A stretch of DNA of 64,000 bases from an uncultured virus (IMG/VR IMGVR_UViG_3300038312_000396) (lineage: Duplodnaviria; Heunggongvirae; Uroviricota; Caudoviricetes), in the IMG/VR virus record IMGVR_UViG_3300038312_000396, one strand, 5' to 3'. How positions within the stretch are numbered: the first letter of the stretch is position 1; each line of letters starts with the position of its first letter. The translations under genes and the position numbers were made by a program. Below are positions 21,541 through 50,843 of the stretch, piece after piece. The notes under the pieces were generated by a model. It was not told the origin of the DNA. It made no database searches and saw nothing but the letters and a program-made list of their open reading frames with translations.

Positions 21541-21883
21541 TTAAACACTCATGTCTACTGCTAAACTAGTCTTAACGTCAATTTTTAAATTTTTACGCCC
21601 TTGTCTAACGATAAATATACCATCCGTTGGTAATGTTAGTATTTCCTCAAATTGCAAGTTCAGTAACTCGTTATCCCCCTTTATGAATACCGTTTTACCC
21701 GATCCTCGTATATGTCCCCAAGTGTTCTCTTAATTCTATTATACTGTTGTCCGCTTTACTAATACAAATTGCGCTGCTATCAGTAAAAGTAAACACAACA
21801 TAATCATGCATGTCCGTCTGTTCTCTTACTCTCATTCCATATAGAATCTCAATTGTGGATTGTTCAATATCCCTACAAACTCC
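21541..21883 (-). pseudogene. frameshifted paralog of 21891..22265
   Basis: Frame 1: IEQSTIEILYGMRVREQTDMHDYVVFTFTDSSAICISKADNSIIELREH, stop near 21695; a second frame continues GSGKTVFIKGDNELL...AVDMSV. Confidence 0.65.
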
Positions 21884-21890
21884 CTACTGC

Positions 21891-22265
21891 TTAGTACCAT
21901 GTACCAATGTCTATTAGATTGAATAACCGCCCCTTGTCACCATCAACACAAACCATTTTGCTTTCTTTAGAACCTTTCACAGCAATTATCGCCCATGTGA
22001 ATCCTGCATCTCTCAAGGATTTAGTACGCATGTGCCTTAATTCCACAATGTTATTACTTTCTCTAATGACACAAACAGCGCTGTCGTCCTCAAAACAATA
22101 TACAGTGTAGTCTCTTAAAACAAAGTATTCCGTTACCCTTTTGCCATATATAATTTCAACGGTAGCTCTGTTATTGTCCATACGCAGTGTTATCAACTCT
22201 CCCAAGGGTATACCCCTTTTTTTACCCTCTTTATTTAGTCCCACCCCTAGTTGCTCCATTTTCAC
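21891..22265 (-). CDS. accessory paralog family member (shared N-terminal motif)
   Basis: TVEIIYGKRV..DYTVY. Confidence 0.55.
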   Translation of the reverse strand: MKMEQLGVGLNKEGKKRGIPLGELITLRMDNNRATVEIIYGKRVTEYFVLRDYTVYCFEDDSAVCVIRESNNIVELRHMRTKSLRDAGFTWAIIAVKGSKESKMVCVDGDKGRLFNLIDIGTWY

Positions 22266-22573
22266 GATATCGCTTTCAAAGATTTTTCAAGTTCCCTGTA
22301 TAAGTCCATATACATCTCTGGTAAATTATACACAGTCAATAATTTTGCGTCAAAAAATATAAATATTCTACCTTGATAAATACGCATGTTATTTGCTTTT
22401 TTACTATGAAAGTAAAGCCTAGATAAAAAATGTTTTAGAGAACCAGTTGTTTCACAATGCTTAATGCCCGTGTTGTATGCTTTACGTACCAGTTTATCTA
22501 CAACACTTCTTCTTGAAATTCCCCAACGCTCTCTAATTCTGATTCGGGCATGTTGTGTAACACTTACTTTCAT
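22262..22573 (-). CDS. small basic protein, possible RelE/BrnT-like fold
   Basis: VTQHARIRIRERW and C-terminal IFIF..KLLTVY pattern. Confidence 0.4.
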   Translation of the reverse strand: MKVSVTQHARIRIRERWGISRRSVVDKLVRKAYNTGIKHCETTGSLKHFLSRLYFHSKKANNMRIYQGRIFIFFDAKLLTVYNLPEMYMDLYRELEKSLKAIS

Positions 22574-22635
22574 TCAATCGCCCCCAGTCATTTGTATTTA
22601 TTTAAGTTAAAGACTACATCTAGTTAAACCCAAAA

Positions 22636-24303
22636 CTACAACATTTTTTTCGCTTTTTTATGCCCTCTGATTATGACGTTCTTTTGTTTTGGTGTAAGTC
22701 TTTTAGTAGTAACAACTGTATTAATTACATCCATTACAAAGGTATCTACTTTATTTTGTTTATTCCACAATGTTAATTCCTTTATCTTATGCTCTATATC
22801 AGGGTTTAGACCTAATGAGCCACTTGTATTTATGCTGTTATTTTGTATGATACCTTTTTCTTCGGCTTCTATACTCTCTTTTAACTCTCTATACGCTTCT
22901 TTAAGCCAATAATACTGATTTTCAGACCATTTAACAACATCTAGCTTCCGCTCGATTAGCATATCATAAGCAATGTTACCGCCACGGATAGTTAACCTAT
23001 TTTCATTCGTTAAATTATTCTCTAAATACTCTTTCACTTTTGTCCTTTCAGTAATCCGTGTTTCTCTTGCAATTTCCTCTTGCTTAATCAGGTAGTACAT
23101 TTGTGCTACTGTTTCTTCTAACTCTTTTGAATGTGCTATGATATCCCTCTTTATGTCCGGTCTGTTTGCTAAATTGTAATAGTAATCCAGTTCATAAGCA
23201 TACGCCAAATTCATCCTATAATTTACACAGCATAACAAGTTTAAGTCTCTAGCCCGTAATTTGAAATTGACTATGTCATCATCCCTACACGTGTATGTGG
23301 AAAGGAAATATAGACAATCCTCAACCTCTTTTCTTATCGGATTCTTTAACTTTTTCCTAAATTCATACATGTCAATAAAGTTTACAGACAAACCCTCGGT
23401 CGCCCATAGGTTTGTGAGATTTCCCAATTTAAACAATAAATCTTTACGTTTACTTATGTTCTCTTGTAATATTTTATAGTTACCGATACCCTCTTTTTCT
23501 TTATCGTAATCAAAATAGTCGTATTCATCCTCACTCGATAGTCTTCTTAAAAGATACCTATGTATATCGCTGTATAGGTTGTGTAGGAATATAGAGGTGT
23601 TATTGTCGCTGTTAAAGTAGTCTCTTTCAAATTTACCAAAACCAACGTATTCCAAGCAATCCTCTGGCAGTGTGTATTGTTCAGCTAATGTAATAGGTAT
23701 AGGTAAACCTAAACGTAAAAAACTTAAAACAGTTGCCTTTATGTTTGAATCAGGTAATTCTACAATAGCATCTGCTCCAAATACACTTATAAACCTACCT
23801 AAATTCCCACACTCATATGTGTAATACTCCTGATATCTTTTAGTTTCCATAATTGTAACCATCAATTTTAACTCTTTTTGCATTGTATCTTGAAGTTTTG
23901 TTAACGCCTTTATGGCTTCCACATCCAAGTCAAAAAAGTCGCCCACACATGTAGAACCAAATATAAGCGAATTACCACTACTCCTGTTAATCGCCTTAAA
24001 CGCATACCGCAATGAATGCCCTAACTCACAACTAACTCTCTCGTTACCGTGATCCCGCATCCCAGCAAACATCCAGTCACCCTCGCCTTTTAACTTATTA
24101 AGCACAGCTATTTTATGTTTTGATACCCCTAATCTTAGAGAACCTGTGAGTTTATTAAATAAATATATAGTATACTTTTCATAGTATTCCATGAGGAAAT
24201 TTGATTGCTGTTGGGTGAAGAATGTGAATAGGTTTAGATTTCCTTTCAATCTTTCCTCAATATACTTCCTTTTAAATTTCTTATAATCTTTTTTGTTAAA
24301 CAA
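22636..24303 (-). CDS. hypothetical protein with putative Zn-binding motif
   Basis: CELGHSLRY...LIFGSTC. Confidence 0.55.
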   Translation of the reverse strand: MFNKKDYKKFKRKYIEERLKGNLNLFTFFTQQQSNFLMEYYEKYTIYLFNKLTGSLRLGVSKHKIAVLNKLKGEGDWMFAGMRDHGNERVSCELGHSLRYAFKAINRSSGNSLIFGSTCVGDFFDLDVEAIKALTKLQDTMQKELKLMVTIMETKRYQEYYTYECGNLGRFISVFGADAIVELPDSNIKATVLSFLRLGLPIPITLAEQYTLPEDCLEYVGFGKFERDYFNSDNNTSIFLHNLYSDIHRYLLRRLSSEDEYDYFDYDKEKEGIGNYKILQENISKRKDLLFKLGNLTNLWATEGLSVNFIDMYEFRKKLKNPIRKEVEDCLYFLSTYTCRDDDIVNFKLRARDLNLLCCVNYRMNLAYAYELDYYYNLANRPDIKRDIIAHSKELEETVAQMYYLIKQEEIARETRITERTKVKEYLENNLTNENRLTIRGGNIAYDMLIERKLDVVKWSENQYYWLKEAYRELKESIEAEEKGIIQNNSINTSGSLGLNPDIEHKIKELTLWNKQNKVDTFVMDVINTVVTTKRLTPKQKNVIIRGHKKAKKML

Positions 24304-24404
24304 CCAAATTTCCCCCTCTCTTTTTAACTACCCTTTTTAGCCCCTATTGTTAATGTATTGCTACTCCCAGTAGTAACCGTTACTAATCCTGTTAACTTTG
24401 CTTT

Positions 24405-24515
24405 TCAAGTCTGCAAGATACTCCCTGCTGCTCTTGCCACGTTTACATAGTTCACTGAAATTTCGTATACAGTATTCTTCGTTATGTCAAGCTCTAAGTA
24501 GTTTATGTCTCTCAC
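24405..24515 (-). pseudogene. truncated paralog of 25192..25662 / 27566..28072
   Basis: RBS plus GTG; MRDINYLELDITKNTVYEISVNYV resembles EYLERGLLPNVSYEITKDKV. Confidence 0.45.
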
Positions 24516-24538
24516 ATTAACTTACCTCTTTTTCAACA

Positions 24539-25195
24539 TTAATAAGGGATATCATGTCTCACAAATACATCCTGTATTTCACCGCTTATTTTCCCTCGTT
24601 CTTCCCCTGTGATAGCGTCAACTTCATACCAAGTGTTATTTAAGGCATCTAAACAATAAAGAGTAAAGTGTTTTATTGAAAGTTTCATTGCCGCATACCC
24701 CTTTGATACTCTATTTAGATTTTCATCATAAACCCATTTTAAATTTTCCTTTTTACATGTGCAGCTAAAACTAACTTTGTCATCTTTATGAAGTAGCCTA
24801 GTAATGTCTTGAAACCCCTCTAAGGTAATTTTGTCGCTACCCCTCTTTTTCAAATGCCAACCATCTTCCTCTAGTAGTGCTATGTGTTTTCTTCCGTGCG
24901 ATTCAAAATCCTTAACAGACCTATTTAGGTAATCAAGCCCTATGTTAAGTAGTCGGACACCATCAAATTCATCTGTGAAAAGTAGGCTGTAATGCGGCTC
25001 TTCTCTCATTATTTCACGCCTGACTTCGCCAGTTATTGAAGAAAGGATCTCTCCATTTAAGTCAGTTATAAAAAACCTTTGTTTAATATCATAAAATATA
25101 CTGTAGTCCTTTGTATCTGGCTCTATGTGTACTAGCTCTTCACCTGTAATAACCTCTAGTTTGGATTTTATAGTGTCTATTGTATTCATGATCAA
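24539..25195 (-). CDS. accessory paralog family A member
   Basis: KLEVITGEEL, ITDLNGEI, LNIGLDY shared with 26245 and 26955 ORFs. Confidence 0.7.
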   Translation of the reverse strand: MIMNTIDTIKSKLEVITGEELVHIEPDTKDYSIFYDIKQRFFITDLNGEILSSITGEVRREIMREEPHYSLLFTDEFDGVRLLNIGLDYLNRSVKDFESHGRKHIALLEEDGWHLKKRGSDKITLEGFQDITRLLHKDDKVSFSCTCKKENLKWVYDENLNRVSKGYAAMKLSIKHFTLYCLDALNNTWYEVDAITGEERGKISGEIQDVFVRHDIPY

Positions 25196-25662
25196 ACCCT
25201 TATTCCTTTCTCCTCATGTCCGAGGCAAACCATACCTCGATATGCTGTTACACTACCTATTGATGTTCCATATCCCGTTAGGTTGCGATGTTTATGTACT
25301 AAGCTCTCTCCAAGTAAAAGCACCTTGTCATCCAAACTCCCTTGTCTGATCCCTCTTTTTTCTATTTCCCTGTATACAACTACTATGTTTTCAAATACAA
25401 GGTTGACAAGTTCTATTTCCTTTAAATAAGCCGACCAATGCCTACCTATAAAGTCAGTAACTTCGGGTAAGCGCTTAAAAAACTTAGGTACACTTAGTTT
25501 TTTAAGCTTAGTATAGTTATCAGTTAATTCTTTTATACTGATAGGTGTAACCCTATATATTTTTACGAACGCAGTGTTTGGACTATATACTTCAACCTTA
25601 TCTTTAGTTATCTCATAAGAAACATTAGGTAATAAACCCCTTTCTAAGTACTCGTCACTCAT
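25192..25662 (-). CDS. accessory paralog family B member
   Basis: YL...LL.NVSY.I and EKRGI..G..DD.V..LG shared with 27566..28072. Confidence 0.7.
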   Translation of the reverse strand: MSDEYLERGLLPNVSYEITKDKVEVYSPNTAFVKIYRVTPISIKELTDNYTKLKKLSVPKFFKRLPEVTDFIGRHWSAYLKEIELVNLVFENIVVVYREIEKRGIRQGSLDDKVLLLGESLVHKHRNLTGYGTSIGSVTAYRGMVCLGHEEKGIRV

Positions 25663-25850
25663 AGTTATTTACTCCCCTCGTTAATTATTTCTTAAAACCG
25701 CTCTAGCAGCCTTTCTGTAACACCTTTTTCACTGTTAAACCGACTTTCAAACTCCACCGTCAACCTTATACGGTCTACAGACCATTTTATTTTATAAATG
25801 CTTTATTAAATATAGCTTTTTGTGATACACCAGATAAAAGTCAAAATAAA

Positions 25851-25878
25851 AAGATAAGGCTTAATTAAGTCTTATCTT
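25851..25878 (-). terminator. terminator-like hairpin
   Basis: AAGATAAGGCTTA/TAAGTCTTATCTT followed by T-run on the minus strand. Confidence 0.55.
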
Positions 25879-26138
25879 CAACTAATCTTGTACCCGAACC
25901 ACTTAAAAAACTATCCATAAATTTAAAAGTGCGGGCTTAAATTTATTAAGTACCTAGAATGAAAACGTACGCACAAATTTTGTCGTTCGAATCAAAAAAT
26001 ATAACCTATGCGTCTTTTGAAAATAGTATTGTAGGAAGTTAATATGTTTCGATATACTAAAAGAAAACTCAATATCTTGTCAGCTTTTCCTTAACATGCC
26101 TATAATACACCCAAGTAAATATAAAGGTGTTAACCAGT

Positions 26139-26279
26139 TTACAACTGCCAATAATACTCTAAATTAGAATACTTAAAAATTACGCCATGCTTATCCGCCC
26201 AAAGTAAAACGCCTTTGCATAACTCAATAATTTCACCAGATAAGTCAGTCAATACCGCAATCTTTACATCCTCGGCTAC
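26139..26279 (-). pseudogene. remnant of another family A paralog
   Basis: Alternate frame reads VKIAVLTDLSGEIIEL, similar to AFVTNLDGEII and FITDLNGEIL. Confidence 0.4.
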
Positions 26280-26931
26280 CTACACCTTTGATAATCTGTG
26301 TCGTATCTAAACACATCGATATTTCCTTTATTTCTTCTCCAGTAAACCCATTTACCTCAAACCATTTTTCATTACCGTCAACTAGCCTTGAACAGTTGTA
26401 AGTATATCCCCATATTGTTTGTACTACGGTATTATAGTCTCTTGTAAGGTAAGTATATTCTTCGTCCAATAACCTATATGATTCTTTAAACTTTATTTTG
26501 ACCGCAAATCTAAAACTATTATTGGAATGAATAAAGTATGTGATACTCTGATACTCTTCTTCTGTTTCAAGCCTTATATCCCGTCTTTTTAGATACCAAC
26601 CAGTTTCACCACTTAACATCAGATGTTTTTCATTAATAGTTTTAAAACCAAGTAATACTTTACCGATATAATCAAGTCCAATATCTAATACTTTACATGT
26701 GTCCGAATTAATAATCAAGTAAATTAAGCTTGTTCTGTGACTATATTTAAGTGTCTCACACTGAACATTATTATGTACGACTATAATTTCCCCATCTAAA
26801 TTTGTTACGAAAGCCTTTTCACTATCTTTACTAAAAAATACTAAATAGTCCCTTGTGTCAACTCTTACACTTTCTAGTTTCACTCCTGCTACTATTTCAA
26901 GTCTATCCTTTATACTGTTTTGTAATCGCAT
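26245..26931 (-). CDS. accessory paralog family A member
   Basis: RLEIVAGVKL, VTNLDGEI, LDIGLDY, GWYLKRR, WFEVNGFTGEE. Confidence 0.7.
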   Translation of the reverse strand: MRLQNSIKDRLEIVAGVKLESVRVDTRDYLVFFSKDSEKAFVTNLDGEIIVVHNNVQCETLKYSHRTSLIYLIINSDTCKVLDIGLDYIGKVLLGFKTINEKHLMLSGETGWYLKRRDIRLETEEEYQSITYFIHSNNSFRFAVKIKFKESYRLLDEEYTYLTRDYNTVVQTIWGYTYNCSRLVDGNEKWFEVNGFTGEEIKEISMCLDTTQIIKGVGSRGCKDCGID

Positions 26932-26942
26932 AATTATATGTT

Positions 26943-26955
26943 CCCCCCCCCCCCC
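26943..26955 (-). repeat. G13 homopolymer (C13 on + strand) in the RBS region of 26245..26931
   Basis: Read directly; begins in the TAG stop of the upstream gene and ends 11 nt before the ATG. Confidence 0.8.
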
Positions 26956-27554
26956 TAGTTCTTATCTTGCCAGTTTATATGTCTACAATGTGTTATGCCA
27001 TCAATAACTTCAAAACATTTAACTACATCCCCTCTTGTTGTCTCCTCTATTTTAGTAAATTCTCTAGTTCTAAATTTAAAGTCCAAGTCTAATACCCGGT
27101 ATAGCATTTTGTCTTTTATTCTTACTATAAAAAACTTTACTATGTCCGCTTCACAAACAGTTGTCACTTCCTCGAATACTTCCGAAGTAGCACAATCCCC
27201 CGTGCATTTTTTAAGAAAACATCCCAAATCATCTTGTAAGTATAAACAAGAGTTATCTAACATGGAATATGTCACAATATTCCTATCTGTGTATTCCATG
27301 CCTATATTTAGTATATTAAGATACTTTCCTTTTTCAATATAAACAATATACCTGTTGATTCCATAAGGTTTAATTTTCACACCGCCATTATAAAAATTAA
27401 TAACATTTCCCGCTCTATCTGTTGTTACTGCCTGTCCCGTTTCAGTATGAAAAATTCTATACATACCATCATCAGATCTAATGTATTTCAATTTATTACC
27501 TGTCAATAACTCAAGCCTAACTCTTATGTCTTTTATTACCTCTGCTTCTGTCAT
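26955..27554 (-). CDS. accessory paralog family A member
   Basis: RLELLTGNKL, TTDRAGNV, LNIGMEY. Confidence 0.7.
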   Translation of the reverse strand: MTEAEVIKDIRVRLELLTGNKLKYIRSDDGMYRIFHTETGQAVTTDRAGNVINFYNGGVKIKPYGINRYIVYIEKGKYLNILNIGMEYTDRNIVTYSMLDNSCLYLQDDLGCFLKKCTGDCATSEVFEEVTTVCEADIVKFFIVRIKDKMLYRVLDLDFKFRTREFTKIEETTRGDVVKCFEVIDGITHCRHINWQDKN

Positions 27555-27565
27555 CTTTCTTCCCC

Positions 27566-28072
27566 TTAACTTAGTCTGATTATCTTCGTATAAACAGGCG
27601 AGTAATCGTTATTTAATGTAAAAAGATTATTCCTCACAGCACCATAAAAATTAATAACTTTACTAATTACACCGTCAAACTGTAAACTTTGATATCTATT
27701 TGTAAGCTTCATTCCTAATCTAAAAACTTCATCATCTGAATACCCCGAATGTATACCCCTTTTCTCTACAAGGCTAAACACATTTACCATGTTATCGAAT
27801 AGGGCATCTGCAATTCTAAAGTTTTCTAAGTATGTTTCCCAGTAAAGCTTAATAAGTTGTTTAGCTGTATACCTAGTGATAAGCTTTATTTTGCGCTTTC
27901 TTGTCGGCTTAACTAAATCAGTATAACTCTGTAGTAGAGAGTCTAAGTCAATTAACTTTAATCGCTTAACACTAATAAACTCAGTATGTGGGGCTGTTAT
28001 AATTATATAATCATTTGAAATACAATAAGACACATTATTTAATAACTTTCTAGTTAAGTAATTATCTACCAT
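27566..28072 (-). CDS. accessory paralog family B member
   Basis: YLTRKLLNNVSYCI, EKRGIHSGYSDDEVFRLG. Confidence 0.7.
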   Translation of the reverse strand: MVDNYLTRKLLNNVSYCISNDYIIITAPHTEFISVKRLKLIDLDSLLQSYTDLVKPTRKRKIKLITRYTAKQLIKLYWETYLENFRIADALFDNMVNVFSLVEKRGIHSGYSDDEVFRLGMKLTNRYQSLQFDGVISKVINFYGAVRNNLFTLNNDYSPVYTKIIRLS

Positions 28073-28138
28073 AAACTACACACCTTTAAACAGTATTCTT
28101 TCTTTATTAAAAATTTGTCTTAATCCACAACATATAAA

Positions 28139-28170
28139 AAAAAGACAAGAGTATATTGTCTTGTCTTTTT
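28139..28170 (-). terminator. terminator-like hairpin
   Basis: AAAAAGACAAGA/TCTTGTCTTTTT. Confidence 0.6.
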
Positions 28171-28343
28171 AAGTGTTATATTTTTACCGCTATGCAAAAT
28201 AATCTAAAAGTATTTTAGTTACTTACTGCTCTATGTTCCACACTTCCATTAAACGTAGTGAATTCAGTTTATCTACTATGTCTTTAGGTAGCATAACCTC
28301 AATCTTCTCCGTAAATTCAATAGTATGAGTGTCAGCAACCTAC

Positions 28344-29899: not shown

Positions 29900-31708
29900 T
29901 TAACTTTTAAACTCATCTGGATCTTTATAATTCCCTGTTATAAACCAATGTTTAACTTCTTTACCTTTTGTAGTTCTTGCTCTCACTTCTTTTTTATTCT
30001 CATCTATACTTAAAATACGAGAATAACTAACATTAGTAATTAGTCTGCCTTTACTGTTTATTACACCGTTTAATTTGTTCCTCTCCACTATAAAATAGTT
30101 CGTCCCGTAGTGTTGAGTAATAGCGTCAAATCCCGCAGATATTTTGTTTCCACGAAAGTCGCATAAATATGTCTTGCCCTTTAAAGTTAATATAAAGAAT
30201 ATATTCACATTATTAATAGTATCTCTTACCAAAACACAATTGTCATATTTACACTCAAGCACAGTTTCATACCCGTTGTTAGTTGTCTTCACTACCCCTT
30301 TTTTACCGTTTTGCACCACACTCCAGTATGTTATATTGTCTTTGCCTGAATTCGAAATACCCACAAGATGTTTAAAACCCTCTATGTCTTCATACTGACA
30401 TTTAAAACCATCTGAGTCTTCATTGTGATCTTTACAAACTTCGTAGTTCATAGGTACAACTAAGGTACGATTGTTTAAATTATATAATCCCACTTTATTG
30501 TCCTTTTCAACACTTATATACCCCTGTTTCCCTGTTGTCCAACACTTATAGTCATCCCATACTAAGTTTAGGTTTTCATCATATAAATGAGTATGAACAC
30601 GATATCTATCTGTTATTCCATAATAATAATTATTAGTATCACAAGTAAAAAGGCATATGTATCTACCGTTTAACTGAACAGATGTACCATCATATCTAAA
30701 CCCAGTATAACCCTCACTTGAACGCTTAGATAATATTATGTTAGAAGTTCTGTCATCACAAACAACTCCCGAAAACCCCTCATTTCCCGTAACTTCATGA
30801 ATAATATCACCATCATCTCTAATGATAATACTTTTTTCACCATCTCGAATAAATGTCAATTTACCTATTGAGTTACTTGTCATACTTTTAGCATTTTCCC
30901 ACAAAACGTATACCCCTGTTTCATCTACCCTAACTAAATCCATCAATCGGTTCTTTGTCGCTATAACTGTTTTACGCTGTTCATCAAAATGAAACTCTAT
31001 ACCGTCATAATCAAAACCTGTTAATGCCTTGATTTCTGCATTATAAAAACCCCATTTGTTTCTTACTTTTATAGCTAAAGAAGTACTGTTAATTGGTTGT
31101 ACCTCTTCAATTGGAAAAGGTATAGCACGTATATTTCCAGCTCTAAGTATACTTTGTATGCTCACTGCATCAATGTTTGTAGTACACAAAAATAAATCTT
31201 TTATTAGATGACGTATATCAGTATAGTTAGCACTGATTACTTCAATTCCTTTTAGGTCAACACAACCTACTTTATATAAGTATATACCGTTGACAATACT
31301 TCTCTCAACAACCTTGAAGTAATTTTCACCAATAGGATCTATTGAGTAATACCTTTTCTTTATAATCCAGTTAGCATTACTGTCAATTAAAGAATAACCA
31401 ACATTGTCTTTTACTGTATAATACCTTCTTTTTTGAGTTTTTCTGAACACTTCATATTTGCCTACATATATGAAATCAGGTAATAAGTAAACATACACTT
31501 CAGAACGTCCACCTCTTACCACGAAGTAATCCTCTGTTACTAACTGTACTTTTACAGGCTTACCCAGTATAAGAGAAAGCTTATTCAATACTTCCTCATG
31601 TGTCCCCACAACATTCTCCGCTTTGACCTCTACTGTTTTCTTGCCATGAAGCAAGTTATTATTTTTATTCATTGTTAACAACTCCTTATACAAATTTATG
31701 CTTTTCAT
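29900..31708 (-). CDS. WG-repeat-like beta-propeller protein, shared N-terminal motif family
   Basis: KLSLILGKPV; repeats GCVDLKGIEVISANY, KWGFYN, KVGLYNL, GVINSKGRLI; colinear with 31686..33269. Confidence 0.7.
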   Translation of the reverse strand: MKSINLYKELLTMNKNNNLLHGKKTVEVKAENVVGTHEEVLNKLSLILGKPVKVQLVTEDYFVVRGGRSEVYVYLLPDFIYVGKYEVFRKTQKRRYYTVKDNVGYSLIDSNANWIIKKRYYSIDPIGENYFKVVERSIVNGIYLYKVGCVDLKGIEVISANYTDIRHLIKDLFLCTTNIDAVSIQSILRAGNIRAIPFPIEEVQPINSTSLAIKVRNKWGFYNAEIKALTGFDYDGIEFHFDEQRKTVIATKNRLMDLVRVDETGVYVLWENAKSMTSNSIGKLTFIRDGEKSIIIRDDGDIIHEVTGNEGFSGVVCDDRTSNIILSKRSSEGYTGFRYDGTSVQLNGRYICLFTCDTNNYYYGITDRYRVHTHLYDENLNLVWDDYKCWTTGKQGYISVEKDNKVGLYNLNNRTLVVPMNYEVCKDHNEDSDGFKCQYEDIEGFKHLVGISNSGKDNITYWSVVQNGKKGVVKTTNNGYETVLECKYDNCVLVRDTINNVNIFFILTLKGKTYLCDFRGNKISAGFDAITQHYGTNYFIVERNKLNGVINSKGRLITNVSYSRILSIDENKKEVRARTTKGKEVKHWFITGNYKDPDEFKS

Positions 31709-33269
31709 GTAAATCTTCTATATTCTCATACTCGACATCAGACACGACATTGCCTTTCAAGTCAATTACTTTATACACACCAGCACTTCTAACCCTTAAG
31801 CAATCCCCCCTCCCCTCCGAACGTATAAAATCATACCCCTTTGTCAATATCTCCCCTTTGTCGTCCGCTAAGTATACCTTACCTTTTTGTTTAAGCATAA
31901 AAACAATATCCGAATCAAGATAATTGTGAAGATTGCATTCGTCATATTCAGGTTTTATAGATACTTCGTAAGTACCAAATTCTTCATCAACACATATTAC
32001 TCCTGTCTTCCCATTTCTAATAACTTGATAGTATGTCTTATATCCGTGGTTGTTCTCTTTGACACGTGATCCTAGACAAAATATCCCTCGGTTTGCACTC
32101 TTTTGCGCATACATGTCGTATATTTTAGGAACAACCAATTGTTTTCTCCCCAAGTCATATAACCCTACTTTACCGTCATTTTCAAAATTAAAATACTCCC
32201 CACTTCTTACAGTACAAAGTGTACCGTCATTTTTTATTAAGTTCAAATCTTCATCATACAACTTATCATATGTATCTATATTTTCTCCTGTAGCAAAATA
32301 ACTACCGCTTGGTGTTTTTATATGAAATAGATAGGAAGAATCAAAATCAAATAATGTTCCATCAGATTTAATACCAATACTCTTACCGTCAGTAGTTGTA
32401 CACACCAAACAAGATGTATTACTAGATTTAATATCTTTAACAGATATTTCATTTAGTTCACATACTATATCCCCTGTACAACTCATAATAAAGCTATTTT
32501 TATCAGATTCAATATAAGTTAATGCCCTCGTTAGATTACTCTTCATGTATTTTGCACCTCGATATAGAATGTACACACCAGTTTCGTCACAAGCTATAAG
32601 GTCATACCTTTCCCCTCTTCTAGTAATTATTGCTTTTGAATCAGGTATCACGTTAACGCTGTCCCACTCAAAACTAGATAGCTCCCTGTCCTCAACACTA
32701 TAAAATCCCCACAAGCCTTTTTTCCTTTTTATTGCTAGTGTGTGCTCACATATACAAATAACACTGTCAATTTCATAAGGTATTGCTTTCTTGTTGCCTG
32801 CTCTAACTATAATTTTTATTTCTACCCCTTTGACTGTAGTCGAACACAAGAATAAATCTCGAATTAAAGACTGTATATTAGAGTACACAGGTGAAATTAC
32901 CTCATTTCCTAACATGTCGATACAGCCCGTATATGTGTCAGGTACTCCCTGCGGATTCAGTACATTTTCCTTAACACCATAAAAACCATTGGTCATAGGA
33001 TATATAGTTATGTACTCTTTCTTCGTTAGAATATCTCCACGTTCACCTATTAACCACCAGCCTTTTCCTGTGAAAGAACCAAAATATTGCCCATACCCCG
33101 TTTTAGCAAACGCTGTATACTTATTCAAAAAGTTAAAGTCAGGTAATGCAAACACATAAGATTCTTTTGTTTCGGCTTGCACGACAAATAAATACTCAGT
33201 TACATACTTCAATGTGACCTGTTTTCCTAATATTATACTTATCTTTTTTAATTCATTTGAATAACTCAA
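31686..33269 (-). CDS. WG-repeat-like beta-propeller protein, tandem paralog of 29900..31708
   Basis: KISIILGKQV; GCIDMLGNEVISPVY, LIRDLFLC, LWGFYS, KVGLYDL. Confidence 0.7.
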   Translation of the reverse strand: MSYSNELKKISIILGKQVTLKYVTEYLFVVQAETKESYVFALPDFNFLNKYTAFAKTGYGQYFGSFTGKGWWLIGERGDILTKKEYITIYPMTNGFYGVKENVLNPQGVPDTYTGCIDMLGNEVISPVYSNIQSLIRDLFLCSTTVKGVEIKIIVRAGNKKAIPYEIDSVICICEHTLAIKRKKGLWGFYSVEDRELSSFEWDSVNVIPDSKAIITRRGERYDLIACDETGVYILYRGAKYMKSNLTRALTYIESDKNSFIMSCTGDIVCELNEISVKDIKSSNTSCLVCTTTDGKSIGIKSDGTLFDFDSSYLFHIKTPSGSYFATGENIDTYDKLYDEDLNLIKNDGTLCTVRSGEYFNFENDGKVGLYDLGRKQLVVPKIYDMYAQKSANRGIFCLGSRVKENNHGYKTYYQVIRNGKTGVICVDEEFGTYEVSIKPEYDECNLHNYLDSDIVFMLKQKGKVYLADDKGEILTKGYDFIRSEGRGDCLRVRSAGVYKVIDLKGNVVSDVEYENIEDLHEKHKFV

Positions 33270-33349
33270 AATGTAACCTACCTTTTAAACTTGTTTAGAT
33301 CCTCGCACTAACCAGATAGTCCCTAATCTTTACACTTTTTAAGTATAAC

Positions 33350-34138
33350 TCAAATAATATTAACTACCCTACCGTTTAATGTCTTAGCTTTTACCACACC
33401 ATTGTGTGTAATCACAAAGTCCGTGTACATTCTTTTCGTAGTCTCATATGTGTTTATGTTCATAGTAGCCCACAATTTAGCCTGTTTCTCCACCACACTT
33501 GACAACATGAATTTAGAATATGAATCACTTATTTTAACTACAATAAAGTTATGGTTAAGCCCCTCAGCAACAACAACATTCTCTAGCACTATGTCTTTTT
33601 CCCACATTGCTAATTTCCATACACATTTTGGCGGGTCTCCTGCCACTACCATAAACGCCAAATGAGTATTTTCATTTATTTTCTCATATCCCATGAGGTC
33701 TTCAAGTATAACTATCTCGTTATTAGTAATTTTACACCTTACTATGTCATACCCCTCTCCTTTGTTCCTGCAAGCCCACATATCACCATCAGCATTTTTT
33801 CGTATATATGTACGATTATCTAAAGGCACTATTAACTCGCCTTGACTTCCCATCAGCCCTCTTTTATCTTTATCGTTGTAGACTTCAAATAAAGTAGGGT
33901 AACTTTCACAAACATTATTTTTTTCATAAAAACTTACTACAAGATGACGACAACTCTTATAAATGTCAATTAAGCCCCCGTCATGCTTGTTAAACACATA
34001 ATATTGCTGATTTATTAAGATAAATATATCGGGAGTTACTGCAAACACAAAACTGTCATTACCCGATAATACCTGTAACTCTTTCCTTTTACCCTCTATC
34101 ACTTTGTTACCCGCCATGTGAACACTCCTTAAACCCAA
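33350..34138 (-). CDS. WG-repeat-like protein, shared N-terminal motif family
   Basis: ELQVLSG; KRGLMGSQGELIVP; WATMNINT. Confidence 0.6.
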   Translation of the reverse strand: MGLRSVHMAGNKVIEGKRKELQVLSGNDSFVFAVTPDIFILINQQYYVFNKHDGGLIDIYKSCRHLVVSFYEKNNVCESYPTLFEVYNDKDKRGLMGSQGELIVPLDNRTYIRKNADGDMWACRNKGEGYDIVRCKITNNEIVILEDLMGYEKINENTHLAFMVVAGDPPKCVWKLAMWEKDIVLENVVVAEGLNHNFIVVKISDSYSKFMLSSVVEKQAKLWATMNINTYETTKRMYTDFVITHNGVVKAKTLNGRVVNII

Positions 34139-34944
34139 TAATCGGCAACAGCAATGCCATCTTTGTTTAACTCAACATATTCCTCTTGATCATCTACAGT
34201 AACAAGTCTCCAAACAGTGTCTTTTACTTCCTCAGTTATAAAATACTTATACTTAAACTCTGTACGTTCTAACGTATGTGCGTTCATTACTGCCCACGAT
34301 CTATCAAACCAATAGGATGTATCTCTTGTAATTTTCACGTAGTCTTCAGTTATCCAGTCCGCTCCTGTTATATCCTTATAAGAAATAACGCCGCCTGGAC
34401 ACACTAAATACTCTGGTTCGTTATCCCTATTATATGCAATGAGTGAGGTCTCTAATAACGATCGAAACCGTAGGAATTCCTGTTTCAGTATTAAGTTATT
34501 ATTAATGTCTACACACCCTACAAGTTTATCTCTCTCACTATTCTTATAGCTCCAAAAATGGAATGTGTCTGATAGGGGTTCTAAAAAATAATATTCAGGT
34601 GCTATTCTCAATTTACCTTTTGAATCAAGTATTGCTTTTTTACCGTCATGTGCGGTTGCTACATAATACTTTTTATTATTATGTCCACAGTACACACTAA
34701 CCCTAAGATAAACGGAATTAGGGTAATACTCGTTGTTGTAGTAATACTTCATGTCTATTACATCTAAATACACCCCTTGATACTCGTAGTTTTCAGAATC
34801 AAAAACATAATATTCCCGTCCACCTCTAGTTCCTGCAATGTGTAACTCTTCTAAACCATAGTGATTAGCTTTATGTAATTCAGCACCTATTATTATCTCT
34901 AAGCATTCCATTTCTTGTTTTAATTTAGCGTTCGTTTCCAACAC
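34129..34944 (-). CDS. WG-repeat-like protein, shared N-terminal motif family
   Basis: CLEIIIGAEL; AILDSKGKLRIAPEY; WAVMNAHTLERTEFKY. Confidence 0.6.
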   Translation of the reverse strand: MLETNAKLKQEMECLEIIIGAELHKANHYGLEELHIAGTRGGREYYVFDSENYEYQGVYLDVIDMKYYYNNEYYPNSVYLRVSVYCGHNNKKYYVATAHDGKKAILDSKGKLRIAPEYYFLEPLSDTFHFWSYKNSERDKLVGCVDINNNLILKQEFLRFRSLLETSLIAYNRDNEPEYLVCPGGVISYKDITGADWITEDYVKITRDTSYWFDRSWAVMNAHTLERTEFKYKYFITEEVKDTVWRLVTVDDQEEYVELNKDGIAVADYWV

Positions 34945-35181
34945 CCCTTTTTTTAAATGTACAAAGTTCTACAATTATCTCATTCTCTTTAAAAACAAGT
35001 TTTTCAATATCCCCGTTATGTAACATACCGTATACAGTGTCTGGTCGCTTAGTGTCAAGTTTATACCTTACGTATGTAGACGTTTTTTGCCCTGAATTAG
35101 CGTTCATAACTACGGTAGCACCTTGTCTTTTTGTTCACCTACAAGTACTTCCAACATATTAAGTTTTACTTTATCTATCAT
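34925..35181 (-). pseudogene. internally deleted, frameshifted family member
   Basis: ATG at 35181 overlapping the upstream TGA gives MIDKVKLNMLEVLVGEQ..stop; another frame gives TVVMNANSGQKT, like the C-terminal WAVMNAHT segment of neighbours. Confidence 0.55.
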
Positions 35182-35627
35182 GTGTCGTTCCCCTTATACT
35201 CCCCGTACTCTATATGATCTCCATTGATAGTAAATTTGTTAGTTTCTTGTAAGGTTATTTCATTCTGTTCCGATATTCCGTATCTAACAAAAATCTGTTT
35301 TTTAAGATCATAACAGTCTAAGTATACACTATCAGTCATGTAAAGCATGTCATACACAACAGGTATTACATATTCGCCTCGATTGTTTATAATCCCCTCT
35401 TTGTCATGCTTAACTACCCTATAAAGTCCTGTTTTTAACTTGCAAAATTCTGGGTATTCTTCGATAAGTTCATACGTCTTACTGTCAAATATAAACGCTT
35501 TATTTATTACTGCCTCATATGTTGATAGTGCGACAATACTATCTGTAGTAAATGCAACATAAACAGTTGTACCCAGTAATGCTGATAGTTCAGCTCGCTT
35601 TTGTTCTAATTCTATTAGTTTGGGCAT
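35178..35627 (-). CDS. short WG-repeat-like protein, shared N-terminal motif family
   Basis: ELSALLGTTV; KEGIINNRGEYVIPVVYD. Confidence 0.65.
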   Translation of the reverse strand: MPKLIELEQKRAELSALLGTTVYVAFTTDSIVALSTYEAVINKAFIFDSKTYELIEEYPEFCKLKTGLYRVVKHDKEGIINNRGEYVIPVVYDMLYMTDSVYLDCYDLKKQIFVRYGISEQNEITLQETNKFTINGDHIEYGEYKGNDT

Positions 35628-35644
35628 ATGTGTACTCCTTTATT

Positions 35645-35854
35645 CTATAACTTTGTAACGCTTGATTCTCCTAATAAAACTCTGTCCCTTTTATCTTTTG
35701 TGGTGAATACTCCTATACTACCATCCATCCCTAACTGACACCATAAATACTTAAACTCAGTTATATGTAAAGTGTTAACATTCATAATCGCACATAACAT
35801 GTCCTTTCTTCTTAATAAAATATTATGCTTGTTTAATCTATCTACGCTCGACAC
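35645..35854 (-). pseudogene. C-terminal fragment of the same family
   Basis: CAIMNVNTLHITEFKY matches WAVMNAHTLERTEFKY of 34129..34944. Confidence 0.5.
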
Positions 35855-36019
35855 TTCTTTACCTAAAAGTATAACCTTTCCGTCTTTAATTAGTTTTAGC
35901 TCTCTGTCGTCATGAATACGTATCTCATAGTATGCAAACCTACCTTTTGTACGTGTTCGTGAATTTATGTTTATACATCATACGACCAATCTTTTTGAAG
36001 TAATACTATGTTATAATCA

Positions 36020-36535
36020 TCATCCCTCTATTATATTGTAGTTTATGTCAAATACAACTTTTTTACCCATTCCGAATAAAGGTGTTGCCTCAGCAATATT
36101 GTTTTTAAACAATGTAATATTACCGTATATAAAAGGCACTACTGTCTCGCCGTGTTCATTTATAACTCCCGTAACTGTCTTTTCCTTGTTCTGTACCACC
36201 GCCCTATTGCAACTAAACGCATATGCTTTACCGTATTCACAAGGTATAACAAGTTCACCCTCAGTATTAATATACCCGAATAACCTTGTTTCTTTGCTTA
36301 ATACAGGTGCAAATCCACCACTAAACGCCATCACTGCATTGTATATGCCCATTACCCCTATTTCAGTATTGTAAACAAGCTTTTCTCCGTTTTTTACTCT
36401 GAATATTATTAATTTTCCTACAACCCTAACAACTTGCACAGATGTACTGTAAATTACCGATAGTTGATTTATAAGTGTTTTAAATTCTTCTGAGTCAATG
36501 CTTACTAATTTTCCATCTTTCAATATAACATCCAC
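36020..36535 (-). CDS. WG (KWG-type) repeat protein
   Basis: Canonical repeats FSGGFAPV..FGYINTEGELVIPCEY..FSCNRAVV..GVINEHGETVVPFIY. Confidence 0.8.
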   Translation of the reverse strand: MDVILKDGKLVSIDSEEFKTLINQLSVIYSTSVQVVRVVGKLIIFRVKNGEKLVYNTEIGVMGIYNAVMAFSGGFAPVLSKETRLFGYINTEGELVIPCEYGKAYAFSCNRAVVQNKEKTVTGVINEHGETVVPFIYGNITLFKNNIAEATPLFGMGKKVVFDINYNIIEG

Positions 36536-36566
36536 ATCATCACCTACTTTAAATTTTTAAAAAAAA

Positions 36567-36596
36567 AGCGGCTTATGTACTGCACATTAAGCCGCT
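36567..36596 (-). terminator. intrinsic terminator
   Basis: AGCGGCTTA/TAAGCCGCT stem followed by long T-run on the minus strand. Confidence 0.7.
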
Positions 36597-36623
36597 ATGT
36601 ATTGATTAGAAAGTGATTTTTTC

Positions 36624-37571
36624 CTACATTTGTATAATGTTCACTTTACGCATTAAACCGCCCGATTCCCCTATTTCTTTGTCCCACATTTCACTCTCTA
36701 ACCTTATTCTGTATGTCTCCATAGTCTTTGCTGGAATGTCAGCGTTTGCATAGACCGAGTAGTTTACCCCTGCTTCATACCCTAGTTTTATTTGTAACAT
36801 TTGAGCTTTGTTGTATGCTGGATTAGCGTAGGGTCTAACATTAAACTTATTTTCACTCTCTAACCTTATCATTTCCATACATTCAACTTTAAAGTCAGGG
36901 TGTAGATAGTACCGTACATTTATACCAGATTTAAGTCCTAAATAAATCTGCTCCATTTGCTCTGCTGAAAATGCTGTGTAGGTATAGCACGTATAGTTTA
37001 AATTCTCTGCCTTACCCCTGTTAATCCAATAAAGCTGCCCTTTTGTGAATTTACTCTCTTTATCCTCTTTTTTGTATTCTTTGTTCAGCTTTACTTGTAC
37101 AGGTTTCTGTGTTCTCACCTTTATTTTATCGTATGTGCCGTTTATTGCACTTATAAAATATTTACCCTCTATCGTATTCTGATTTGAACCAGCGGTGTTT
37201 GTAACTACCTTTCCATTTTGTAATCCGCAACTTATAGCTGCTTTTAAGGCAACATTTTTATTAAAGCTCTTTGTTACCCCTTGATTGTTTACCATCTTAA
37301 AGCCGACAGTGTTGTCACTTTCATCAACGTATTCAGCAAGAATTACAAAAGGAGTAGTTCCTTTAGTTTTGCGGAAGTAATCGAACCTGTCTAAACTTCC
37401 ATTACTTCCTTTAAGTTGCCCGTTCTCAACTACTGCATTTTTAACTAAATTACCCTCTTGTATTGCTTTTATCAACGCTTGTTCTTCTAATGTTGATACG
37501 CCTTTACCATATTGACTTAACCTATAATAATATTTTCCATCATATAACTGTCTATCAATTATAACTGCCAT
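36624..37571 (-). CDS. hypothetical protein with duplicated N-terminal domain and C-terminal helical repeats
   Basis: Repeats FSAEQMEQIYLGLKSGINV and YNKAQMLQIKLGYEAGVNY. Confidence 0.65.
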   Translation of the reverse strand: MAVIIDRQLYDGKYYYRLSQYGKGVSTLEEQALIKAIQEGNLVKNAVVENGQLKGSNGSLDRFDYFRKTKGTTPFVILAEYVDESDNTVGFKMVNNQGVTKSFNKNVALKAAISCGLQNGKVVTNTAGSNQNTIEGKYFISAINGTYDKIKVRTQKPVQVKLNKEYKKEDKESKFTKGQLYWINRGKAENLNYTCYTYTAFSAEQMEQIYLGLKSGINVRYYLHPDFKVECMEMIRLESENKFNVRPYANPAYNKAQMLQIKLGYEAGVNYSVYANADIPAKTMETYRIRLESEMWDKEIGESGGLMRKVNIIQM

Positions 37572-37602
37572 GTTAATCCCTCCCTAAAAATGTTTAATCA
37601 AT

Positions 37603-38136
37603 TTAATAATTTTCTGCGAAATCATTTAACTCTGAAAGTGATGAAAACACACCTATTTGATCTCCTGTATCATCCAATAGTACATACCCGTTTTTTATTG
37701 TGACACAAGCATATACTACTTTACCTGTTTGTTGCCTATAAGGTACTATGCTGTTATACATAAAAGGCGATAATTCACAATGTCTAGTAATTACCTTGAA
37801 ACGTGCTACTATACCTTGAAAGTACTTTCCATGTTCAGTTATATGTTTCTCAACTACATAAGAATTGCACCCTGTGGGAACAATATCAACATAGTCTTCT
37901 GAAACTTTTCCCTCAGTAATATTCCAAAGATAGCATTTGTCCTTATACTGTTCTGCATACTCTTTGATGATAAATAAGTCATCTGAATGATCATATTCTA
38001 TTTGTTTATAGCCTATAGGTAAAATCTCAGCACCTGTGGTATCAAATACCCCATAGTAATTACCATATCTTACTATGAAGCACTTATCCGCAATTTGCGT
38101 TACTTCGTCGAACAGGATTTTTAACCTGTTTAACAT
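37603..38136 (-). CDS. WG-repeat-like protein (start revised to ATG at 38136 after G8 RBS)
   Basis: RLKILF..V; YGVFDTTGAEILPIGY. Confidence 0.6.
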   Translation of the reverse strand: MLNRLKILFDEVTQIADKCFIVRYGNYYGVFDTTGAEILPIGYKQIEYDHSDDLFIIKEYAEQYKDKCYLWNITEGKVSEDYVDIVPTGCNSYVVEKHITEHGKYFQGIVARFKVITRHCELSPFMYNSIVPYRQQTGKVVYACVTIKNGYVLLDDTGDQIGVFSSLSELNDFAENY

Positions 38137-38152
38137 TTCAGCACCCCCCCCA

Positions 38153-50828: not shown

Positions 50829-50843
50829 TTTAACTCCCCCTTA

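What the first reader, a model, noticed from the sequence alone, without database searches (positions are those of the whole stretch)
21541..38136. Expanded family of hypervariable beta-rich/WG-repeat proteins sharing one short N-terminal motif
Seen: about 14 otherwise very divergent ORFs and remnants begin with a similar helix-Gly-strand motif. The copies read TVEIIYGKRV (21891), TIEILYGMRV (21541 remnant), KLEVITGEEL (24539), RLEIVAGVKL (26245), RLELLTGNKL (26955), KLSLILGKPV (29900), KISIILGKQV (31686), ELQVLSGNDS (33350), CLEIIIGAEL (34129), MLEVLVGEQ (35181 remnant), ELSALLGTTV (35178), QLSVIYSTSV (36020), RLKILFDEV (37603) and TLSVLYGRKV (61069). Many continue with D-[YF]-x-[VI]-[FV]. 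Intact bodies range from about 120 to 600 aa, several carry WG/KWG repeats, and none has a signal peptide. Inference: a constant docking tag plus a variable recognition propeller, like F-box/BTB adaptor logic. This could be an adaptor repertoire for one shared partner, a capsid-loading signal for injected proteins, or an anti-defence arsenal. I do not recognise it as a described system.
Basis: partly seen in the sequence, partly recalled or inferred. Interest (0 to 1): 0.85.

Follow-up and report, generated by a model that had tools for sequence, protein, structure and literature searches.

The report
Phage gene family with shared N-terminal cap
An uncultured large phage carries about a dozen very divergent beta-repeat proteins that all begin with the same small folded module, which looks more like a shared structural cap than a docking tag; what these proteins bind is unknown.

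Summary
Twelve intact minus-strand ORFs and three remnants share a helix-Gly-strand motif 9-43 residues from their N-termini. A strict pattern hits 9 times in N-terminal stretches against 0.75 expected. A leave-one-family-out matrix puts the best site of the whole protein at the flagged position in 9 of 12. A matrix from the 12 also finds two unseen members in a 99%-related phage, L004.

The motif is the start of a ~55-residue module: a Gly-capped helix followed by a four-strand meander. Its later strands read as a degenerate WG repeat. Bodies are WG-type, propeller-blade-like repeats in B1, B2 and C2-C5. WG repeats are not detectable in A, D and E.

All 15 strongly conserved module columns are hydrophobic or glycine. 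That fits a conserved fold core better than a specific docking surface. The family evolves by tandem duplication, decay and strain-level gene gain and loss. No relatives were found outside this phage lineage.

Function is inferred only: cytoplasmic accessory binders. This is a new variant of a known kind, of moderate interest.

The parts
21698..21883 (-). Remnant: truncated copy of the 21891 gene (motif TIEILYGMRV), with no start codon before the motif
   Evidence: Translation of the gap. The module HMM A7 gives 21.1 bits against a shuffled maximum of 9.8, and this piece was not in the training set.
21891..22265 (-). Member D, 124 aa, essentially the N-terminal module alone. Its start overlaps the end of the upstream 103-aa gene (22262-22573) by 4 nt.
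   Evidence: The leave-family-out matrix scores 10.5, above all 15,295 background positions. No WG repeat is detectable.
24539..25195 (-). Member A1, 218 aa (motif KLEVITGEEL)
   Evidence: Paralogue of 26245 and 26955, BLASTP E 4e-28 and 6e-11. AF2 gives helix 2-17 and then all-beta, pLDDT 70.8. Matches are propeller blades for residues 94-169.
25192..25662 (-). A' partner gene, 156 aa, without the motif; overlaps A1 by 4 nt; duplicated together with A
   Evidence: BLASTP to 27566, E 3e-24. No family found in any library.
26245..26931 (-). Member A2, 228 aa (RLEIVAGVKL)
   Evidence: Matches the strict pattern, but the leave-family-out matrix does not support it on its own, at -10.0.
26955..27554 (-). 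Member A3, 199 aa (RLELLTGNKL)
   Evidence: Matrix score 8.7; 1 of 15,295 background positions is as high.
27566..28072 (-). Second A' partner gene, 168 aa, without the motif
29900..31708 (-). Member B1, 602 aa as the longest ORF. The orthologue P0011 starts at the ORF's 13th residue, giving 590 aa. WG-repeat protein.
   Evidence: Pfam WG_beta_rep 32.9 bits against a cut-off of 25.6. 34% identical to 31686. 66% identical to P0011, with a conserved N-terminal 240 aa.
31686..33269 (-). Member B2, 527 aa, WG-repeat protein
   Evidence: Pfam 46.4 bits. Its cluster P0002 is 97% identical.
33350..34138 (-). Member C1, 262 aa (ELQVLSGNDS)
   Evidence: BLASTP to 35178, E 0.003. WG repeat only marginal: 4.1 bits and hhalign probability 21%.
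34129..34944 (-). Member C2, 271 aa (CLEIIIGAEL)
   Evidence: Own WG HMM 15.3 bits against a shuffled maximum of 9.1. hhalign probability 63%.
34925..35193 (-). Probable decayed member: the short frame with MLEVLVGEQ followed by the 60-aa ORF 34925-35107 in another frame
   Evidence: Weak: 4.6 bits with the module HMM. The 60-aa ORF gives BLASTP E 0.006 to 61069.
35178..35627 (-). Member C3, 149 aa (ELSALLGTTV)
   Evidence: Matrix score 18.4, above all background positions. WG HMM 16.6 bits.
35645..35854 (-). C-terminal remnant (69 aa) of a 233-aa member that is intact in L004. The window lacks about 1.4 kb that holds two members there.
   Evidence: 94% identical to residues 165-233 of L004 14377-15078. 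Both L004 extras carry the motif.
36020..36535 (-). Member C4, 171 aa (QLSVIYSTSV, Ser in place of Gly), with the strongest WG repeats
   Evidence: Pfam 73 bits. AF2 pLDDT 78.8, helix 16-28, module pLDDT 90-93. Only propellers match, Z up to 7.1.
37603..38160 (-). Member C5, 185 aa as the longest ORF (177 aa in P0051 and L004). Weakest motif (RLKILFDEV, no Gly).
   Evidence: WG HMM 20.8 bits. The matrix does not support the motif, at -8.8. It aligns collinearly in A1 and A7.
61069..62499 (-). Member E, 476 aa (TLSVLYGRKV), lying apart between the two topoisomerase II subunit genes
   Evidence: Strict pattern at residue 26. Matrix score 4.3, with 2 of 50 background proteins as high in their first 60 positions. 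The top hhalign hit to D is N-terminus to N-terminus. No WG repeat reaches significance.

Best explanation
This is a multigene family specific to one lineage of an uncultured large phage (contig of about 156 kb). It sits in the replication-gene block, on the same strand as every other gene of the window.

Build of each member. Each has a conserved N-terminal module of about 55 residues: an amphipathic helix ended by a glycine, then a four-strand beta meander. A variable number of beta-blade repeats follows. These repeats are of the WG type (PF14903) in most members.

What the shared motif is. It is the buried end of the helix, its glycine cap and the first strand. It is kept because it forms the hydrophobic core that caps and nucleates the first blade, and because all members descend from one ancestor. 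It is not a free docking peptide.

How the family evolves. It grows by tandem duplication and diverges fast, mainly in the repeat bodies. It loses copies by decay and differs in gene content between near-identical strains.

Inferred, not shown. The proteins are soluble cytoplasmic binders, made together with the replication genes, that act on host or phage targets (host takeover or counter-defence).
For: Family and motif are real: (see the observation check).

Module anatomy:
- Fourteen sequences align collinearly over about 55 columns with few gaps.
- Two AF2 models from different families give the same order of elements. A1 has helix 2-17 and then strands at 22-24, 32-35, 40-44 and 50-55. 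C4 has helix 16-28 and then strands at 34-39, 42-46, 52-56 and 60-65. The module carries the highest confidence in both.
- Of 56 occupied columns, 15 are at least 80% one residue class: 14 hydrophobic and 1 glycine, none polar.
- In the search of 1.84 billion representatives, internal repeats of long bacterial WG proteins match the profile from about position 33 onward, the D-Y-F-V-V strand. Positions 3-29 at a protein's N-terminus are matched only by this lineage's own proteins, 4 of the 150 listed rows: P0002, P0011, P0026 and P0051.

Bodies:
- WG repeats are detected in B1, B2, C2, C3, C4 and C5.
- Both models match only beta-propellers.

Evolution:
- Paralogue groups and a duplicated A'-A cassette.
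- Three remnants.
- L004 holds two extra members within an otherwise 96-100% identical stretch.
- dN/dS is 0.12-0.68 in the array against 0-0.36 in neighbouring core genes, on small counts.
- The C-terminal half of B1 has diverged in P0011 and in contigs of runs X2 and X6.

Lineage restriction:
- The A and B queries find only their own clusters.
- No match in cultured phages for B2 and no relatives in the viral contig collection.
- In 59 loci anchored on distant MoxR relatives (821 kb) no frame reaches significance; the best E is 0.14 for the module and 0.052 for WG.
Against: - Common ancestry of A, D and E with the WG members rests on the module alone. Their bodies show no WG signal: hhalign probabilities are 1.3%, 0.3% and 5.8%.
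- Held out, A ranks only 170 of 1,922 with the HMM.
- hhalign between families never exceeds 20% probability.
- Both AF2 models rest on shallow alignments of paralogues (4 and 7 rows). I had no coordinates, so the packing of the helix on the sheet is inferred from the order of elements, the confidence and the small-domain matches (Z 4.3-4.6, not significant).
- A hydrophobic conserved face could itself be a binding surface, so weakens the docking reading but does not exclude it.
- Higher conservation of the N-terminal third than of the body in orthologues is also what an adaptor would show.
- No evidence bears on expression, localisation or targets.
- Only 64 kb of about 156 kb of the genome could be read.
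Confidence: 0.55

Rival explanations
1. Adaptor repertoire. The N-terminal module is a common handle that docks every member onto one shared phage or host machine, while the variable blades recruit different targets, as BTB or F-box proteins do.
For: - The module is the only element shared by families whose bodies are otherwise unrelated in sequence.
- It is better conserved than the body between B1 and its orthologue.
- Member D is little more than the module.
- The array abuts a MoxR ATPase and a vWA/metallopeptidase gene.
- The conserved hydrophobic face could be an interface.
Against: - No polar or charged column is conserved.
- The module carries the highest AF2 confidence as part of the fold, and its strands are a WG-like repeat.
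- No single-copy candidate partner is conserved with the array. The 59 distant MoxR loci have no array.
- No similarity to BTB, F-box or any Pfam domain.
Confidence: 0.2
2. Toxin-neutralising array. The members are immunity-like or antitoxin-like binders. Some are paired with an upstream small protein (A' with A; the 103-aa gene 22262-22573 with D), and the rest are orphan binders against host abortive-infection or toxin effectors.
For: - A' and A overlap by 4 nt and were duplicated as a unit.
- D overlaps the 103-aa upstream gene by 4 nt.
- Tandem, fast-turnover binder arrays and strain-level gain and loss are typical of conflict genes. That generalisation is from my own knowledge, not from a call.
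Against: - No toxin, antitoxin or defence family was detected in A', in the 103-aa protein or in any member.
- Most members have no upstream partner.
- dN/dS stays below 1.
Confidence: 0.12
3. Capsid-loading signal. The motif targets the proteins into the prohead for injection, like the capsid targeting sequences of T4 internal proteins.
For: The motif lies near the N-terminus, and several copies read L-E-[IV].
Against: - The motif starts at residue 9 to 43, not at the extreme N-terminus.
- The Glu is not conserved; column 12 holds S, E, Q or K.
- The motif is part of a folded module.
- The genes lie among replication genes, not structural genes.
- The properties of the T4 signal are recalled, not tested.
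Confidence: 0.04
4. Chance or composition: an amphipathic helix followed by Gly and a strand is common in AT-rich genomes.
For: The motif is short. Two listed copies (26245 taken on its own, and 37603) are not separable from background. The HMM test is weak for A and C5.
Against: - Nine N-terminal hits against 0.75 expected.
- Unseen members and a remnant are recovered above all background.
- No other window protein scores above 5.2 in its first 60 positions.
Confidence: 0.02

Closest known systems
WG_beta_rep proteins (Pfam PF14903, 'WG containing repeat', also called KWG Leptospira repeat)
   Same: B1, B2 and C4 pass the Pfam threshold. C2, C3 and C5 match a repeat HMM built from 2,237 repeats. 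25,187 representative proteins match the N-terminal profile through their repeats.
   Different: - In the six long hits I read, none starts with the helix-Gly-strand element.
- The one phage-collection hit I read (L001) begins with a hydrophobic N-terminus that reads as a lipoprotein-type signal (read by eye; no tool run), which these members lack.
- These members are short (124-602 aa), lie in a phage and carry the N-terminal module.
- A, D and E have no detectable WG repeat.
- The function of PF14903 is itself unknown. Of the four papers my search listed I read passages in two: one lists it among repeat families without a known structure (PMC8078820) and one lists it as a retron accessory cluster (PMC13712802).
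BTB/POZ-WD40, BTB-Kelch and F-box paralogue expansions of giant viruses and eukaryotes
   Same: The logic is the same: many paralogues, a constant N-terminal module and a variable propeller-type body. The C4 model's viral structure hits are mostly mimivirus-type BTB/WD40 proteins.
   Different: TM-scores are only 0.3-0.4 and stem from the blades. There is no BTB or F-box sequence signal. No cullin- or Skp1-like partner exists in bacteria as far as I know (own knowledge). The module here is a helix on a beta meander, not a BTB fold.
N-terminal capping units of repeat proteins (for example LRR N-caps or ankyrin caps)
   Same: It is a conserved terminal element whose conserved residues are hydrophobic and which precedes a variable repeat array. 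That caps are conserved in this way is my own knowledge.
   Different: No homology; this is an analogy only. Here the cap is a helix over the first blade of a beta-repeat array, and one member (D) consists of little else.
Capsid targeting sequences of T4 internal proteins
   Same: A short element near the N-terminus shared by otherwise unrelated phage proteins.
   Different: See the rival above: position, lack of a conserved cleavage Glu, folded context and gene neighbourhood all differ. The T4 features are recalled.

Membership tests
WG_beta_rep (PF14903) | Whole-protein score at or above Pfam's gathering cut-off (25.6 bits) | tested here: met
   Met for 29900 (32.9), 31686 (46.4) and 36020 (73.0). 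Below the cut-off for 35178 (14.4) and 37603 (16.0-18.3). No hit for 21891, 24539, 26245, 26955, 33350, 34129 or 61069.
WG_beta_rep (PF14903) | Repeat unit of about 34 residues (consensus [34 protein letters not shown] from my own HMM) detectable above shuffled controls | tested here: met
   Scores for B1, B2, C2, C3, C4 and C5 are 32.4, 35.3, 15.3, 16.6, 76.4 and 20.8 bits, against a shuffled maximum of 9.1 over 1,860 shuffles. C1 scores 4.1, E 4.5 and A at most 1.0; D has no hit. hhalign gives the same split. So the feature is met for six members and not for the other six.
Closed beta-propeller | Ring of 4-10 four-stranded blades, with a global structural match to solved propellers | tested here: inconclusive
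   Only propellers match, but with low global scores. Foldseek TM is 0.22-0.41. VIA Z is at most 7.1, and the good local fits cover 2-3 blades, for example C4 residues 102-171 at rmsd 2.3-2.8. Members of 124-271 aa are too short for a ring on their own.
BTB or F-box adaptor | A BTB/POZ or F-box domain at the N-terminus | tested here: not met
   Pfam finds no such domain in whole proteins at E 0.01 or in the N-terminal 72-82 residues at E 10.
BTB or F-box adaptor | Binding of the constant domain to one shared scaffold | not testable with these tools
   No candidate scaffold was identified. This needs pull-downs.
SUKH / SMI1-KNR4 immunity proteins | Match to the SUKH family models. The N-terminal 'E..LG..LP..Y..F' resemblance is recalled from memory. 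| tested here: not met
   No SMI1_KNR4 or SUKH model is listed for any of the 12 N-terminal segments at E up to 10. The models show strands after the Gly, not the second helix I recall for SUKH.
T4-type capsid targeting sequence | Extreme N-terminal signal ending in a conserved Glu cleavage site (recalled) | tested here: not met
   The motif begins at residue 9-43. The candidate Glu column holds S, E, Q or K.
Cystatin-like or PepSY-like helix-on-sheet domains | Structural match of the N-terminal module with a clear Z-score | tested here: inconclusive
   Residues 1-57 of the A1 model align to a designed cystatin-fold protein (4r80_A, Z 4.5, rmsd 2.0, 55 residues) and to the UipA domain, which I take to be PepSY-type from memory (7atk, Z 4.3). 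These lie within the noise range stated by the tool. The module was not folded alone.

The most novel reading that the evidence does not exclude
The ~55-residue helix-Gly-meander module would be a previously undescribed autonomous domain. It would act as a common handle that plugs a repertoire of divergent blade-repeat binders into one phage or host machine, for example the adjacent MoxR-vWA pair. That would give a bacteriophage an exchangeable substrate-receptor system analogous to BTB or F-box families. Strain-level gain and loss of receptors would tune which host factors are captured.
Probability: 0.12. Interest if true: 0.8.

Novelty: new variant of a known kind. Interest (0 to 1): 0.45.

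Why it matters
About 10 kb of this phage's replication block is spent on a self-expanding family of repeat proteins that no library annotates. Near-identical strains already differ in how many members they carry.

If the members are binders of host factors, the family would be a compact natural library of intracellular binding scaffolds. It would also mark an arms-race locus in an uncultured phage lineage whose MoxR relatives lie on contigs labelled as Clostridia genomes.

The N-terminal module gives a usable signature (alignment A7). It can find further members in the unread 92 kb of the genome and in new metagenomes.

It also offers the first phage context for the WG repeat (PF14903), whose function is not known.

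Tried and rejected
- **Homodimer of 36020** (two copies, alignment A4): no verdict (score 0.00 against a mark of 0.42). This is no evidence either way.
- **RNA evidence:** no RNA holder is listed among the 10 runs, so nothing can be said on expression.
- **Whole genome:** none is held for the window, and the record behind L002 is not held for whole-record searches. About 92 kb of the ~156 kb contig went unread.
- **Word-based homologue searches** for A1 and B2 returned only their own clusters at 98% and 97% identity.
- **Cultured phages:** no DNA match and no match for B2. C4 hit one record, L001, which encodes a 454-aa WG protein whose hydrophobic N-terminus reads as a lipoprotein-type signal (read by eye; no tool run), in unrelated, higher-GC DNA. 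I rejected it as a relative.
- **Viral contig collection:** no relatives of MoxR or of the B family.
- **Distant MoxR loci (59):** no significant module or WG hit. One borderline WG-like ORF sits at the cut end of L028, E 0.052.
- **Module profile against PDB sequences:** best E 0.11, to a ribosomal protein. Rejected.
- **ESM Atlas:**
  - For A1 only leads below 0.9 (DUF5046, KWG).
  - For D no usable feature hit, and a poor stored model with pLDDT 0.48.
- **Promoter and terminator scan** of 21400-39400: fewer promoter-like sites than in shuffles (65 against 79). Not informative.
- **PADLOC and NCBIfam:** nothing for any member.
- **jackhmmer inside the window** from one C4 repeat converged on C3 and C4 only. 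I replaced it with an HMM trained on the long WG proteins.
- **Representative search:** the list is filled by long multi-repeat proteins, so it cannot show whether short WG proteins elsewhere carry the module.
- **Literature:** two searches, 'WG containing repeat / PF14903 / WG_beta_rep / KWG repeat' and 'KWG / Leptospira repeat / phage', found no paper describing such a phage family. I read only the listings and two passages.

Full report
**Context.** All genes of the window lie on the minus strand, and GC content is 32-36%. PHROGs names a replication block: topoisomerase II subunits, DnaB-like helicase, primase, NAD ligase, DNA polymerase I, an exonuclease V/Dda-like helicase, and a MoxR-like ATPase next to a DUF2201 metallopeptidase/vWA protein. 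No tRNA gene was found. No whole genome is held. There is no DNA match in 50,697 phage records. The polymerase and MoxR are only 25-34% identical to cultured-phage proteins. The same phage occurs as L002 (100% MoxR identity, 156,231-base contig), and a close variant occurs as L004 (99%, 155,736-base contig). More distant MoxR relatives (23-39% identical) lie mostly on contigs labelled Lachnospiraceae, Intestinibacter or Clostridium. That is only a hint at the host.

**The observation.** BLASTP sorts the proteins into groups:
- A: 24539, 26245 and 26955.
- B: 29900 and 31686, 34% identical.
- C1-C5: 33350, 34129, 35178, 36020 and 37603, a loosely linked set.
- D (21891) and E (61069), which stand alone.
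- A', a motif-less family (25192 and 27566), lies just upstream of A-type genes and was duplicated with them.

I ran five tests of the motif.
1. The strict pattern hits 13 times in 19,557 residues. Nine hits are in the first 50 residues, against 0.75 expected. The pattern is post hoc.
2. With a gapless matrix leaving each family out, the flagged site is the best site of the entire protein in 9 of 12. Four exceed all 15,295 background positions. 26245 and 37603 fail, and in 61069 the flagged site is weak and the best position lies elsewhere.
3. Leave-one-group-out HMMs gave mixed ranks: 1 for C1, C2 and C4; 3-10 for D, C3, B and E; 170 for A; C5 was not found.
4. A matrix from the 12 members recovers two members that exist only in L004, at 15.8 and 15.1 against a background maximum of 9.25.
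5. The 14-sequence module HMM, run over 1,090 six-frame pieces of the window, finds one untrained piece, the D remnant at 21698-21883. It scores 21.1 bits against a shuffled maximum of 9.8. Nothing else is found.

Codons at the conserved residues differ, so selection acts on the protein.

**What the motif belongs to.** Fourteen N-termini align collinearly over about 55 columns.

AF2 gives the same order for two different families:
- A1: pLDDT 70.8, pTM 0.67, from 4 alignment rows.
- C4: pLDDT 78.8, pTM 0.70, from 7 rows.

The module is the most confident part of both models.

In the exhaustive search with the N-terminal profile (25,187 hits at E up to 0.001), internal repeats of long bacterial WG proteins match from profile position about 33 onward. 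Positions 3-29 at a protein N-terminus are matched only by P0002, P0011, P0026 and P0051, which are this lineage's own proteins. So the later strands of the module are a degenerate first WG repeat. The helix-Gly-strand in front of it is specific to this family, as far as the 150 listed rows show.

Conserved columns are 14 hydrophobic and 1 glycine out of 56 occupied columns, and none is polar. In the A1 model the first 57 residues align to small helix-on-sheet domains (Z 4.3-4.6), and residues 94-169 align to propeller blades (Z 6.1, rmsd 2.6). In the C4 model the good local fits begin at residue 66 or 102. I had no coordinates, so the packing of the helix on the sheet is inferred.

**The bodies.** Pfam passes WG_beta_rep for B1, B2 and C4. 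A repeat HMM trained on 2,237 repeats of the long hits lifts B1, B2, C2, C3, C4 and C5 above all 1,860 shuffles. C1, E, A and D stay below, and hhalign agrees. Foldseek and VIA return only beta-propellers for both models, with low global scores. The viral library returns mostly giant-virus BTB/WD40 proteins at TM 0.3-0.4. 'Propeller-blade-like repeats' is therefore supported. A closed propeller is not shown.

**Evolution.** The window holds three remnants. L004 carries two additional intact members (271 and 233 aa) between C4 and C3, where the window keeps only the last 69 codons of one. The shared array proteins are 96-99% identical, and nearby core proteins are mostly 99-100% identical.

dN/dS between the two strains is 0.12-0.68 in the array and 0-0.36 in core genes, on few substitutions. 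That points to relaxed constraint rather than demonstrated positive selection.

B1 and its orthologue P0011 are 66% identical overall. Identity is 77-95% in the first 240 residues and 43-60% after that. Contigs of runs X2 and X6 also fail to follow the C-terminal half of B1 while covering its start.

**Function.** Nothing in Pfam, PHROGs, NCBIfam or PADLOC names the module or the A, D and E bodies. I commit to the following reading. These are soluble cytoplasmic binder proteins of an accessory, fast-turnover locus, made with the replication genes. The shared motif is the core of a structural cap that has been inherited from a common ancestor. The steps from 'binder' onward are inference.

The adaptor reading keeps a real share of probability. 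The module is the only common element, it is better conserved than the bodies, and D is little else. The immunity-like reading rests on the two translationally coupled pairs. The capsid-signal reading is unlikely.

**Novelty.** Repeat-protein paralogue expansions and WG repeats are both known. Not described in anything I could search are this N-terminal module, its combination with WG blades inside a phage, and the strain-level turnover (for the literature; family libraries as above).

Noticed in passing
L004 5740-6850 (within the polymerase ORF 3391-7818), against window 41488-44898: The DNA polymerase of the variant phage is 1,475 aa against 1,136 aa in the window. The extra stretch matches an intein splicing domain with a LAGLIDADG endonuclease, so the intein is present in one strain and absent in the other.
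   Followed up: partly
window 49950-54017: NAD-dependent DNA ligase appears as two separate ORFs. 52737-54017 matches PHROG profile positions 9-372 and 49950-50828 matches positions 397-654. A ParB-like/HNH endonuclease gene (50844-52121) and a 164-aa ORF lie between them. This may be a ligase split by a mobile endonuclease.
   Followed up: no
window 58821-63992: Family member E (61069-62499) sits between the two topoisomerase II subunit genes, far from the main array.
   Followed up: no
window 25663-26244: A 582-base stretch without an ORF lies between A2 and the next A' gene. One frame (26142-26279) holds a weak A-like piece, AVLTDLSGEIIELCKG, at 4.5 bits, which is not significant.
   Followed up: partly
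window 24539-25662 and 26245-28072: A' and A form a cassette with a 4-nt start/stop overlap that was duplicated as a unit. The second copy holds two A genes. A' has no match in any library.
   Followed up: partly
window 21891-22573: The 103-aa protein upstream of D (phrog_16724, unknown function) overlaps D's start by 4 nt.
   Followed up: no
window 38153-39289 against L004 10001-11137: MoxR has dS 0.146 between the two strains while neighbouring genes have 0.01-0.06, and the vWA protein is only 93% identical. This suggests mosaic exchange of that segment.
   Followed up: no
window 31703-34043: One contig of run X2 joins 31703 to 34043 and skips 2,339 bases (B2 and most of C1). It has 36 letters on the shorter side and was laid at 80% likeness, so it may be a deletion variant or an assembly artefact between family members.
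   Followed up: no
window 28344-29282: This HD-domain protein resembles the YhaM 3'-5' exoribonuclease (NCBIfam E 4e-13, far below the cut-off) and Cas3-HD models. It lies inside the accessory block.
   Followed up: no
L028 11135-11377: In the closest genome-collection relative of MoxR (37% identical), an ORF cut by the contig end directly follows MoxR and has a borderline WG-like match, E 0.052.
   Followed up: no
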